A DNA stretch of 11,080 nt from contig NW_021827220.1 of assembly GCF_006345805.1 (NCBI RefSeq), forward strand, positions 1 through 11,080, written 5' to 3'. Below, piece by piece: positions 2,305 through 11,080 of this stretch. A program made the translations under genes and the position numbers. The stretch is from Octopus sinensis. Taxonomy: Eukaryota. The first letter of the stretch is position 1, and each line of letters begins with the position of its first letter. A model generated the notes under the pieces. It saw nothing but the letters and a program-made list of their open reading frames with translations. It did no database searches and was not told where the DNA came from.

Positions 2305-2720
2305 TGAAGTTCGCTTCGTATCCGTGGGGTTACGGTTTTGTCATGCTGAGAGGCAACTTACGCAAGTGCCTTCTACGATTCTATGATAGGTTGTCTAATA
2401 TATATATATATATATATATATTTAATATATATATATGTAATGTTTGTATGAATGTATGTATTAATATATATAATATGTGTGTGTGTGTGTGTGTGTGTCT
2501 TTCTGGCTGTATGTTCTCCACCACCACCACAACATCAAGGCTTGACAACTAGTGTCCGTCTGTTTATGTCCCCGTAACTTAGCGATTCGGCAGAAAGGCC
2601 TATAGAATAGGTACTAAGCTTTAAAAAAATATACCCTGAGGTCGAATTGTTCGACAAAAACACTTCAAGGCTGTGCTCCAGCATGACCACAGTCAAATAA
2701 CTGAAACAAATAAAAGAATA
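2305..2720 (+). mobile_element. Diverged tRNA-derived SINE (octopus-type, family A) with internal TA/TG microsatellite
   Basis: The 5' part (GGCAACTTACGCAAGTGCCTTCTAC) resembles the copy at 5234-5483 (GGCAAGTTGGGCAAGTGTTTTTTAC). GTAACTTAGCGATTC at 2574-2588 is the exact reverse complement of 10902-10916. The tail GTGCTCCAGCATGACCACAGTCAAATAACTGAAACAAATAAAAG matches the reverse complement of about 10996-11039. The family call is from recalled octopus SINE sequence. Confidence 0.85.
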
Positions 2721-3548: not shown

Positions 3549-4010
3549 TTACATGCACACATTGCATAATGCAGACATTACATAGTACAAGTTGCATGAC
3601 ATTTCACAAAAAGCATACTGCATAATACACACACAACACACATTGCATAAAACAGACATTACATAGTACAAGTTGCATGACATTTCACATAAAGCATACT
3701 GCATAATACACACATAACACACATTGCATAGTACATGCTGAAAAACGCGCATTGCATAATATACGTTGCATAACCCACATTACATATCATATTCGCATTA
3801 CCTAACATACACACAATGCCAACACACTTGTTTCATAACATGTACATATTGCGTGATTTGTACACAGGGCATAATATACATACATTGCATAACACACTTT
3901 GCATAACAGACATTGTACAACACACAGTGTGGATAACGTACATACGTTATATAACATGCACACATTGCATAATTTACACATTCTATGCATACAGTACACG
4001 ATATGAAGTC
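3549..4010. repeat. Degenerate ~20-bp minisatellite (ACACATTGCATAA core) containing an 81-bp higher-order tandem duplication
   Basis: CACACATTGCATA occurs at 3556, 3637 and 3718 (period 81). CAGACATTACATAGTACAAGTTGCATGACATTTCACA occurs at 3572 and 3653. TTGCATAA-like cores recur to about 3972. Confidence 0.9.
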
Positions 4011-5182: not shown

Positions 5183-5233
5183 TTTGTTTTCTTCTTTCTT
5201 ATTTGTGTCTCTCCTTACTAACCGTCAGCCAAA

Positions 5234-5483
5234 GCGTAGGAGTGGCTGTGTGGTATGTAGCTTGCTTACGAACCACATGGTTCCCAGTACAGTCCCACTG
5301 CGTGGCAAGTTGGGCAAGTGTTTTTTACTATAGCTTCGGGCCGACCAAAGCCTTGTGACCTGATTTGGTAGACGGAAACTGAAAGAAACCTGTCGTATAT
5401 ATGTAAATATATATATATGTATGTGTGTGTATATGTTTGTGTGTCTGTGTTTGTCCACCACCACCGCCAACCTCGAACCGATG
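5234..5483 (+). mobile_element. tRNA-derived SINE (family A), 5' half with internal microsatellite, 3'-truncated
   Basis: A-box-like TGGCTGTGTGG and a damaged B-box region (GGTTCCCAGTACAGTCCC), then GGGCAAGTG...GGCCGACCAAAGCCTTGTG...GGTAGACGGAAACTGAAAGAA and a (TA/TG)n tract. TGTCTGTGTTTGTCC matches the reverse complement of 10973-10987. It closely resembles the abundant octopus tRNA-SINE as recalled. Confidence 0.9.
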
Positions 5484-7526: not shown

Positions 7527-8082
7527 AAAAAGGTAAAGAAATGAAATAGCACCAATGTGTACGCTTATTATTGGCACAATGACCCTCCGGAGATACAACA
7601 ACAACAACATATATTTCAGCACACGAACGAGTACACATTTAGTATCTCACAAACCAATTACAAAAACGAAACTTTCAGTGATTCTTAATGATTTTTATTT
7701 GAAGCCTATTTGCTCTATTTTCTTCTGGTATTTTGTATTGTCTTCCTTCAGTTATTATTATTCCTCTCACCTTTTTCCATTCACTGTACTTCATTATTTT
7801 CATTGACTCGGTCACATATTTCATTATTTCTTTTCGTAAGGTCAGTGGATTGGGAAATTCCTTAGTGTGTCGGGAAAAATATTTTGTGGTACTTATCCTT
7901 GCTCTTTACGTGCTGTATACATATCCTGTCAAAGTCATTTGTTGTCTTCTCGAATATTGGTACTCGGCACCGACTAACCTCTCTCCTCAGAATTATATAT
8001 ATATATCTCTCTCCCTCCCTCTCTCTCATTCTGTGATATATATGTAACGGGCAAAGTTTACCTATTTCTCCGCAGACAGAAA

Positions 8083-8152
8083 AAAATGATGAACAACCTT
8101 AATCGATTTTCGAACCTTATTGGGTTCTCATCAGAAGCGTCCACATCATTCT
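8083..8152 (-). ncRNA. Type I hammerhead ribozyme with canonical core and palindromic minimal stem III (Penelope/retrozyme type)
   Basis: Minus strand: AGAATGATGTGGACGCTT-CTGATGA-GAACC-CAATAA-GGTTC-GAA-AATCGATT-A^AGGTTGTTCATCATTTT. All core nucleotides are present, G10.1-C11.1 closes stem II, stem III is the palindrome AATCGATT, and the triplet is UUA. Distal stem I is AATGATG/CATCATT. Confidence 0.8.
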
Positions 8153-8369
8153 GACAGTCTCCAGAAAAACAAGCAGCCTAACTGCTTATATACTTAACAA
8201 ATGCAGCAGTTACTCTATGAAGGAGTCCCTAATTTGCACACCGAAAGTGTTTAACACTCTATAAATACCAGCGGCCTGTTAACGGGGATCTCAGTCCACA
8301 CAGTAACAAAGTATGATGTAATAAATATGCAACATGTACGTTTACATATGCGTTATGTGTATATATAAA

Positions 8370-8690
8370 CTTCCTTCGTCTTTTTATCTCTACCAAAATC
8401 TACCTCCACATCTCTTCACTTCTCAACGTCTTTCTATCCCCTCTCTGTTTAACTCTTCCATTCTTGTCTTATTCATTCACTCACTCTACCTCATCACCCC
8501 TCTAATTCCCCCTCTGTATTATAGAACTTTAACTTCTTTCCACCTCTCCTCTATTACTCACGTTATTCCTTCTTTCGTTACTCGTTCTCCTCCCTTTCAC
8601 ACTATTTCTCTTTCGCTCGCCTTATTGTAGGCTGACTACTATCTCTTGTGCCCTCTTTCTTTCTCCATTACACTCTATCATTTACATATT
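8370..8690 (+). repeat. Pyrimidine-rich (CT-rich) low-complexity tract
   Basis: Strong C/T bias with very few G on the + strand; probably a decayed (CT)n/(CTTT)n repeat. Confidence 0.6.
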
Positions 8691-10861: not shown

Positions 10862-10988
10862 GCTGTTTCTGTCATTGGACTGTAGACCGGTCTGTTTTGC
10901 GGAATCGCTAAGTTACTGGGAGGTAAACAAACCAACACCAATTGTTAAGCGGTGGGGTGGGGGGTGAGGGAAGGACAAACACAGACAT
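10862..10988 (-). mobile_element. Older SINE family A 3' half with internal deletion
   Basis: The reverse complement aligns with 2510-2600 (exact 15-mer GTAACTTAGCGATTC). It then jumps to the tail motif CAGTCCAATGACAGAAAC, skipping the segment seen at about 2605-2685. Confidence 0.75.
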
Positions 10989-10990
10989 GT

Positions 10991-11080
10991 ACTCTCTTTT
11001 ACTTGTTTCAGTCATTTGACTGCGGCCATGCTGGAGCACCAACTTTAGTCGAGCAAATCCACCCCAGGACTTATTCTTTG
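10991..11080 (-). mobile_element. SINE family A 3' tail, well preserved, running off the window edge
   Basis: The reverse complement CAAAGAATAAGTCCTGGGGTGGATTTGCTCGACTAAAGTTGGTGCTCCAGCATGGCCGCAGTCAAATGACTGAAACAAGTAAAAGAG aligns with 2622-2718. Confidence 0.9.

What the first reader, a model, noticed from the sequence alone, without database searches (positions are those of the whole stretch)
8083..8152. Apparently intact genomic hammerhead ribozyme with a palindromic stem III (possibly dimer-dependent)
Seen on the minus strand: CUGAUGA (8134-8128), stem II GAACC/GGUUC with loop CAAUAA, GAAA (8111-8108), and the palindrome AAUCGAUU (8108-8101). Predicted cleavage follows UUA, between 8100 and 8099. 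Stem I is irregular next to the core (U-A, U.G, C-G, G.U), then a bulge, then the 7-bp helix AAUGAUG/CAUCAUU. Established: minimal type I hammerheads with short palindromic stem III occur in pseudo-LTRs of Penelope-like retroelements and in non-autonomous retrozymes, and can cleave as dimers. Inference: this copy could still self-cleave and truncate a minus-strand transcript. The AAUCGAUU/UUA variant differs from the commoner ACAGCUGU/GUH form.
Basis: partly seen in the sequence, partly recalled or inferred. Interest (0 to 1): 0.8.

Follow-up and report, generated by a model that had tools for sequence, protein, structure and literature searches.

The report
Hammerhead ribozyme in a mobile repeat
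This is a real hammerhead ribozyme sequence inside one solo copy of a roughly 300-base repeat found at hundreds of places in this animal genome, likely a retrozyme (a non-coding mobile element of a known kind) spread by Penelope-like retrotransposons, and this copy is probably an inert leftover.

Summary
Observation confirmed. The minus strand carries an intact type I hammerhead: CUGAUGA, 5-bp stem II, GAAA, palindrome AAUCGAUU, UUA at 8100/8099. It lies in a 287-bp copy (8335-8049) of a non-coding repeat with a period of about 306 bp. The family gives 1652 search candidates and 287 core-plus-palindrome matches against 1 control. Stem II covaries between subfamilies. Copies share a 3' end beside microsatellites (45 of 63), have ragged 5' ends, and occur as 1.0-1.5-mers, some with inverted pieces. 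These are Penelope-like (PLE) insertion marks. No ORF was contiguous with any copy examined; an intact-looking PLE lies elsewhere in the genome. Best reading: a non-LTR retrozyme (non-autonomous PLE-type element), a known kind; my searches found no description of this family. This copy is solo and 5.9% diverged. Folding predicts an inactive monomer that needs a partner, and it has none in cis. Three RNA runs show family reads, none at 99% identity to this copy, and no pile-up at the cut site. Cleavage was not tested.

The parts
8049..8335 (-). One copy (about 1.0 unit, 287 bp) of the ~306-bp non-coding repeat (family A); holds a single hammerhead
   Evidence: BLAST boundaries against 89 other loci; 17 of 287 positions differ from the commonest letter of 29 other copies
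8036..8048 (-). Remnant of the family's 3' tail running into a short TA tract; about 21 nt of the usual tail are missing in this copy
   Evidence: Alignment and 3' flanks of copies
8128..8134 (-). Catalytic core C3-A9 (CUGAUGA), intact
   Evidence: Sequence; columns at least 90% conserved in 87 copies
8112..8127 (-). Stem II (5 bp, G10.1-C11.1 first) with 6-nt loop
   Evidence: Pair probability about 1.0; both-side changes at pairs 3 and 4
8108..8111 (-). Core G12-A13-A14-A15.1
   Evidence: Sequence
8101..8108 (-). Palindrome: 2 A-U pairs plus 4-nt loop as monomer helix III, or 8-bp helix between two copies
   Evidence: Monomer pair probability 0.00; duplex -6.1 kcal/mol
8099..8100 (-). Predicted self-cleavage site after UUA
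   Evidence: Inferred from hammerhead geometry; no RNA ends seen here
8135..8150 (-). 5' strand of stem I (4 bp + 3 bp + 2-nt bulge + 7 bp); U at 8136 gives a wobble where most copies have C-G
8085..8099 (-). 3' strand of stem I
8065..8169 (-). Extended rod enclosing the hammerhead (8155-8169 paired with 8079-8065); this copy has lost one pair at 8078
   Evidence: Fold; C-G/U-A covariation at 8157:8077

Best explanation
The stretch is an intact type I hammerhead sequence within a solo copy of a dispersed, non-coding ~306-bp repeat, which is likely a non-LTR retrozyme copied into TA/CA microsatellites by a Penelope-like retrotransposon's enzyme. Shown: the motif, the repeat, its copy structure, covariation, and no contiguous ORF. 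Predicted by folding: a single hammerhead traps its core (8133-8130) against its own palindrome (8107-8104), while two copies can pair their palindromes into an 8-bp helix III. Inferred: source elements with two hammerheads were transcribed and cut out unit-length RNA, which may have been circularised, and a PLE reverse transcriptase/endonuclease started at the tail and copied 1.0-1.5 units into the genome. This copy has one hammerhead, so it cannot release a monomer and could cut only slowly or with a partner RNA in trans; it is most likely a dead-end insertion whose core is still intact by chance.
For: Copy number: 1652 candidates, 40 of 40 scored at 89-100% identity; 287 core matches vs 1 control. 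Insertion marks in 73 non-redundant loci: 63 reach the same 3' end, 45 of those 63 have a microsatellite within 55 nt (background 13.8%), 5' ends range over unit positions 1-263, 15 are multi-piece; adjacent inverted pieces in L009, L014, L188. These are the PLE marks listed in PMC8557442. Period 304-307 bp in undeleted tandems. Structure under selection in source elements: 83.6% of cells paired vs 21-49% when slid; stem II pair 3 is AU 57, CG 13, GU 8, UA 2, GC 1, other 6 of 87; 8157:8077 is Watson-Crick in 51 of 77 vs 33.1 shuffled; core columns vary less than other 3'-half columns (10/271 vs 307/3124, p=0.0004). Dimer need: active monomer +9.1 kcal/mol over the MFE, active two-strand form +4.5 for two sites. 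An intact-looking PLE (842-aa ORF, 98% identical pLTRs) is in the genome. Decay: of 27 copies in loci picked by the non-hammerhead half, 17 keep the core and 3 keep everything.
Against: No cleavage, circle or unit-length RNA was shown. No long tandem array was found: 8 strict dimers genome-wide, all partial, none with a third copy within 1.5 kb, whereas described retrozymes are tandem arrays. RNAalifold gave no consensus pair on the 87 copies, and the number of pairs with both-side changes (9) did not beat shuffles (465 of 500); the covariation rests on a few subfamily-level events. Circular folds of 7 natural monomers were not clearly more stable than shuffles (z -2.5 to +1.1). The partner PLE is not identified: the intact PLE shows no BLAST match to the unit and its tail match is not significant (185 of 1000 shuffles). 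This copy is among the best preserved (it passes all tests that only 3 of 27 pass), though it was noticed for that reason.
Confidence: 0.78

Rival explanations
1. The unit is the pseudo-LTR (3' end) of an autonomous PLE whose ORF-bearing copies are rare, old or missing from the assembly; this copy is a 5'-truncated PLE insertion.
For: Same insertion marks; PLE endonuclease-like pieces are abundant here (13,636 candidates); retrozymes are related to pLTRs in Xenopus (bioRxiv 10.64898/2026.07.22.740005).
Against: Upstream of a full unit lies another piece of the same unit or unrelated flank, never shared coding sequence. tblastn with the PLE ORF over 244 loci hit near a copy only at L070/L206, L063/L207, L209, L257 and L105; four were inspected and are on the other strand or cut off by microsatellites and SINEs; L105 was not inspected. 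Flanks were mostly 1.5 kb and only one PLE clade was used as the query.
Confidence: 0.13
2. This copy has been kept by the host as a cis-acting ribozyme that cuts a minus-strand transcript.
For: Core, G10.1-C11.1, stem II, palindrome and proximal stem I are all intact, as in only 3 of 27 comparison copies. Private changes in core columns run lower than elsewhere (4/271 vs 97/3124), though not significantly (p=0.19).
Against: At 5.9% divergence an intact core is common (17 of 27). The copy has its own weakening changes (8136, 8078, 8166). The monomer is predicted inactive and has no cis partner. No RNA reads on the flanks and no ends at the site (one study, species match unknown).
Confidence: 0.06
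3. The repeat is some other dispersed element and the hammerhead look is chance.
For: No Rfam hammerhead hit in the window; RNAalifold gave no structure.
Against: Core columns are the most conserved part across subfamilies only 70-75% alike, with compensatory stem II changes.
Confidence: 0.03

Closest known systems
Animal non-LTR retrozymes with type I hammerheads (coral Acropora, mussel Mytilus, axolotl; PMC7229834)
   Same: Non-coding unit within the 150-450 bp range, low GC, one type I hammerhead per unit, weak palindromic helix III, thousands-scale dispersed family, co-occurring PLEs.
   Different: Here copies are mostly solo or 1.0-1.5-mers, not dimers to multimers; circular RNA and cleavage not shown; UUA triplet with an all-A-U helix III; sequence is its own family.
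Solo retrozyme monomers of Xenopus (bioRxiv 10.64898/2026.07.22.740005)
   Same: Dispersed monomers that cannot start a new cycle; proposed PLE mobilisation; in that study 8 of 9 tested dimers did not cleave.
   Different: There the units match pLTRs of annotated PLEs; here no matching PLE was found.
pLTR hammerheads of EN+ Penelope-like elements (PMC4209133; Hydra clade, PMC8557442)
   Same: Fixed 3' end with tail, 5' truncation, partial tandems, inverted pieces, (TA)n targets; palindromic helix III.
   Different: No RT/GIY-YIG ORF attached; lacks the extra base after A9 and the longer helix II of the minimal PLE hammerheads.
Rfam Hammerhead_1 (RF00163)
   Same: Type I topology and core.
   Different: The window copy does not score; other hammerhead repeats in this genome do.

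Membership tests
Type I hammerhead ribozyme | Core CUGANGA, GAAA, NUH with helices I-III | tested here: met
   helix III is only 2 A-U pairs as a monomer
Type I hammerhead ribozyme | Match to Rfam RF00163 | tested here: not met
   No hit at E<=10 in three window scans; not among the 7 genome matches, where only 74 of 265,813 candidates were scored
Type I hammerhead ribozyme | Site-specific self-cleavage | not testable with these tools
   Needs an assay; no read ends at 8100/8099 in three RNA runs
Type I hammerhead ribozyme | Loop 1/loop 2 tertiary contact | not tested
   A bulge in stem I and a 6-nt loop 2 are present and conserved in position; likeness to known contacts is recalled only
Minimal PLE hammerhead (PMC4209133) | Unpaired base between positions 9 and 10.1; helix III absent or reduced | tested here: not met
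   G10.1 follows A9 directly; short palindromic helix III present (definition)
Non-LTR retrozyme | Non-coding unit of about 150-450 bp with one type I hammerhead | tested here: met
   Period 304-307 bp; no ORF overlapping the hammerhead strand beyond short frames
Non-LTR retrozyme | Head-to-tail tandem copies with at least two hammerheads | tested here: inconclusive
   Partial dimers with two hammerheads exist (8 strict; more) but no full dimer or longer array of family A was found; arrays may be collapsed in the assembly; this copy is solo
Non-LTR retrozyme | Expressed as unit-length linear and circular RNA | tested here: inconclusive
   Family reads at low level on both strands; no back-joint among the listed rows for the RNA runs; library type may miss circles
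Autonomous Penelope-like element | RT plus GIY-YIG ORF between pLTRs | tested here: not met
   No PLE hit in the window; none contiguous with a copy in the loci inspected
PLE-type insertion | Fixed 3' tail, 5' truncation, partial tandems, inverted pieces, microsatellite targets | tested here: met

The most novel reading that the evidence does not exclude
This family is a genomic record of a PLE enzyme reverse-transcribing around a ribozyme-made RNA circle. Copies start at a fixed tail and run 1.0-1.5 units; of 47 copies with a full 5' half, 10 run through the upstream cleavage site and only 1 stops at it, as a religated or uncut template would give. The predicted pairing of the palindrome with the catalytic core would keep the circle from cutting itself. 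With an intact-looking PLE in the same genome, the proposed PLE mobilisation of animal retrozymes becomes testable in a cephalopod-type genome.
Probability: 0.3. Interest if true: 0.55.

Novelty: new member of a known kind. Interest (0 to 1): 0.27.

Why it matters
As a single locus it matters little: hammerheads in dispersed retrozyme/PLE repeats are common in invertebrates, and 235 Hammerhead_1 hits were reported in the giant squid genome (PMC6962438, passage). The family has some value: it shows PLE insertion marks on a purely non-coding element, several age layers with compensatory changes, and a candidate helper PLE in the same genome, so it could serve to test how animal retrozymes are mobilised and how their circles avoid self-cleavage, a point PMC7229834 leaves open.

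Tried and rejected
Rfam scans gave only microsatellite-driven miRNA hits and chance snoRNA hits. Run search: no RNA holder listed; this is not evidence either way; shares under 0.2 were not used. Family B, a composite element sharing the hammerhead and tail, first looked like the autonomous partner but has no ORF in six frames and its upstream part belongs to other repeats. The intact PLE L176 as direct parent: no nucleotide match, tail similarity not significant. PLE fragments near copies (L206, L207, L209, L285): not contiguous. A Pfam accession recalled for PLE proteins was not in the library; Pfam did not recognise the PLE proteins, so their naming rests on motifs read by eye. Circular-fold stability and RNAalifold gave no support. 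Distal stem pairs were mis-numbered by one and were redone. The apparent pile of 5' ends at -14 is likely a match of the AT-rich tail to TA tracts and was not used. Earlier scan notes: nothing. Literature searches for hammerhead+ribozyme+octopus, retrozyme+cephalopod and octopus+Penelope+non-autonomous showed no description of this family; the core motif was absent from the PMC8557442 supplement as held (line breaks could hide it). The supplement of PMC7229834 and one file of PMC4209133 could not be read and may list cephalopod examples. A search on triplet rates was seen as a listing only; that UUA is a slower triplet is recalled.

Full report
Observation. Stem I is 4 bp, a 1-nt bulge, 3 bp, a 2-nt bulge and 7 bp, and continues as a rod to 8169/8065. 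A loose core pattern matched at two sites in the window, 7 overlapping matches against a shuffle mean of 0.26; only this site has a stem II. Rfam did not list a hammerhead in three scans.

Surroundings. The window is a whole 11,080-bp contig of a 2.72-Gb genome, rich in microsatellites and dispersed repeats. The ORFs listed are short or low-complexity. That the host is an octopus-like cephalopod is inference; no call names it. The hammerhead lies in a repeat spanning 8335-8049. The 141 bases around it gave 1652 candidates, of which 40 were scored, all 89-100% identical. The exact 35-nt core occurs 38 times, a CpG-tolerant version 92 times, and core plus palindrome 287 times against 1 control. 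DNA contigs of run X15 cover the family deeply and one contig matches the flank 8262-8480 without differences.

Copy anatomy. From loci L001-L090 I dropped 9 duplicates and 8 family-B loci. Of the remaining 73, 63 reach the same 3' end, and 45 of those 63 have a microsatellite within 55 nt, against 13.8% at random flank positions; 5' ends are ragged; 15 loci are multi-piece. Inverted pieces adjoin L009, L014 and L188. Undeleted tandems give a period of 304-307 bp; shorter spacings (264-291) carry deletions and older subfamilies gave 335-338. A strict dimer pattern found 8 places genome-wide; each is a partial unit plus a full one, with no third copy within 1.5 kb. Of 47 copies with a full 5' half, 10 extend more than 5 nt past the upstream cleavage site (one more, L041, failed my filter) and 1 stops within 5 nt of it. 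So templates were not generally cut at the upstream hammerhead when copied: they were circles or uncut precursors (inference). Fixed tail, 5' truncation, partial tandems, inverted pieces and (TA)n targets are the PLE marks in PMC8557442 (passages and supplement rows).

Is the structure selected? In 87 copies (the window, plus 86 from loci picked by the non-hammerhead half or by BLAST with two older copies), 83.6% of cells pair, against 81.7% shuffled (0 of 500) and 21-49% when partners are slid. Stem II pair 3 is AU 57, CG 13, GU 8, UA 2, GC 1, other 6; pair 4 is CG 35, UA 15, UG 10, with 25 unpaired. Pair 8157:8077 switches C-G to U-A between subfamilies (51 of 77 Watson-Crick, shuffled mean 33.1). 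Against this: the count of pairs with both-side changes (9) did not beat shuffles, copies are related so these are a few events, the two older query copies were hand-picked for divergent stem II, and RNAalifold predicted no pair. In 29 copies picked by the non-hammerhead half, core columns differ less than other 3'-half columns (10/271 vs 307/3124, p=0.0004), but for private changes the gap is not significant (4/271 vs 97/3124, p=0.19). This fits selection in source elements and decay after insertion, with low power to exclude weak later selection.

This copy. It differs from the column-wise commonest letter at 17 of 287 positions (5.9%; median of others 7.1%), including a C-G to U.G change in stem I (8136), a lost rod pair (8078) and about 21 nt missing from the tail. 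Of 27 comparison hammerheads, 17 keep the core, 8 also G10.1-C11.1 and all of stem II, 5 also the palindrome, 3 also proximal stem I; the window copy passes all (four loci whose copy did not span the hammerhead in my filter were left out). It is the only copy in its contig.

Mechanism. The monomer MFE (-18.6 kcal/mol) pairs core 8133-8130 with 8107-8104; helix III has probability 0.00 and the active monomer costs +9.1. The two-strand active form evaluates at -32.7 against -37.2 for two monomers, +4.5 for two sites. The model omits core and tertiary contacts, so only the direction is informative. Dimer dependence of such hammerheads is established in PMC4209133 (parts 1-2 of 4 read) and PMC7229834 (parts 2-4 of 6 read). 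I infer that two-hammerhead source elements released unit RNA, possibly circularised, and that a PLE enzyme inserted it. Internal initiation and the tail signature are described for an anole PLE (PMC11167929, part 1 of 4 read). A solo copy cannot restart this cycle.

RNA. Three raw RNA runs of one study (organism B, match to this genome's species unknown; about 6% of each read) laid 170, 222 and 167 reads at 85% likeness, some on the microsatellite at 7985-8027. None was 99% alike, 2, 2 and 4 were 95-99% alike, the flanks had no depth, both orientations occur, and no begin or end pile lies at 8100/8099. So the family is present in RNA at low level; this locus and cleavage are not shown.

Partner search. 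Family B shares only the hammerhead and tail and has no ORF. A PLE endonuclease-like frame from L118 found 13,636 candidates and led to L176: pLTR, 842-aa ORF, 98% identical pLTR, inverted 5' piece, and its own type I hammerhead with a different palindrome. Its DKT motif and C-terminal endonuclease suggest the Hydra clade by eye (definition; an octopus Hydra family is listed). It does not match the unit. tblastn over 244 loci found no ORF contiguous with a copy among those inspected.

Comparison and verdict. It works like an animal non-LTR retrozyme; membership is met for size, non-coding content and hammerhead, inconclusive for arrays and circular RNA. A 2026 preprint argues such elements are non-autonomous PLE derivatives and found 8 of 9 dimers inactive (parts 1-3 of 5 read). 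Passages only were seen of PMC6962438, PMC6155905 and PMC8967140. My searches found no account of this family. Verdict: real, new member of a known kind, this copy probably inert; interest 0.27.

Noticed in passing
L176:282-7299 (G000:C3:129830500-129840400): Intact-looking autonomous PLE: 2.25-kb pLTRs 98% identical, 842-aa RT plus C-terminal endonuclease-like ORF, inverted 5' piece, a type I hammerhead with a long loop 2 in each pLTR; relatives L177-L185 are 89-97% alike over the ORF. Hydra-like by motifs read by eye; Pfam does not recognise it.
   Followed up: partly
L091-L098, L124-L129: Family B: a composite non-coding element of over 1.6 kb, with a sharp start that recalls a hAT transposon end (recalled, untested), which has captured the hammerhead plus tail and multiplied it (about 15-20 near-full copies); a second hammerhead-like motif lies about 1.1 kb downstream (L127:1544).
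   Followed up: partly
L278, L281-L284: A second hammerhead repeat family that passes the RF00163 cut-off, with a different palindrome, a 431-bp tandem (L283/L284) and an inverted arrangement (L281).
   Followed up: no
window 8192-8185, minus strand: TATA-like sequence about 90 nt upstream of the cut site; most copies read as a perfect TATA box here while this copy has a change at 8185. Possible internal promoter, untested.
   Followed up: no
L009:1627-1700 (as oriented): A family copy followed by a short inverted piece and then two to three telomere-type TTAGGG repeats.
   Followed up: no
L129:2771-3565 (-): Caspase domain in one uninterrupted frame (Pfam PF00656, E 7.8e-62) a few kb from a family-B copy.
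   Followed up: no
window 2500-2720, 5220-5480, 10880-11080: Dispersed repeats that match 46-123 of the fetched loci per 100-bp bin, probably SINEs; also an 81-bp tandem repeat at 3556-3730 and a 1.3-kb ATGT microsatellite at 951-2289.
   Followed up: no
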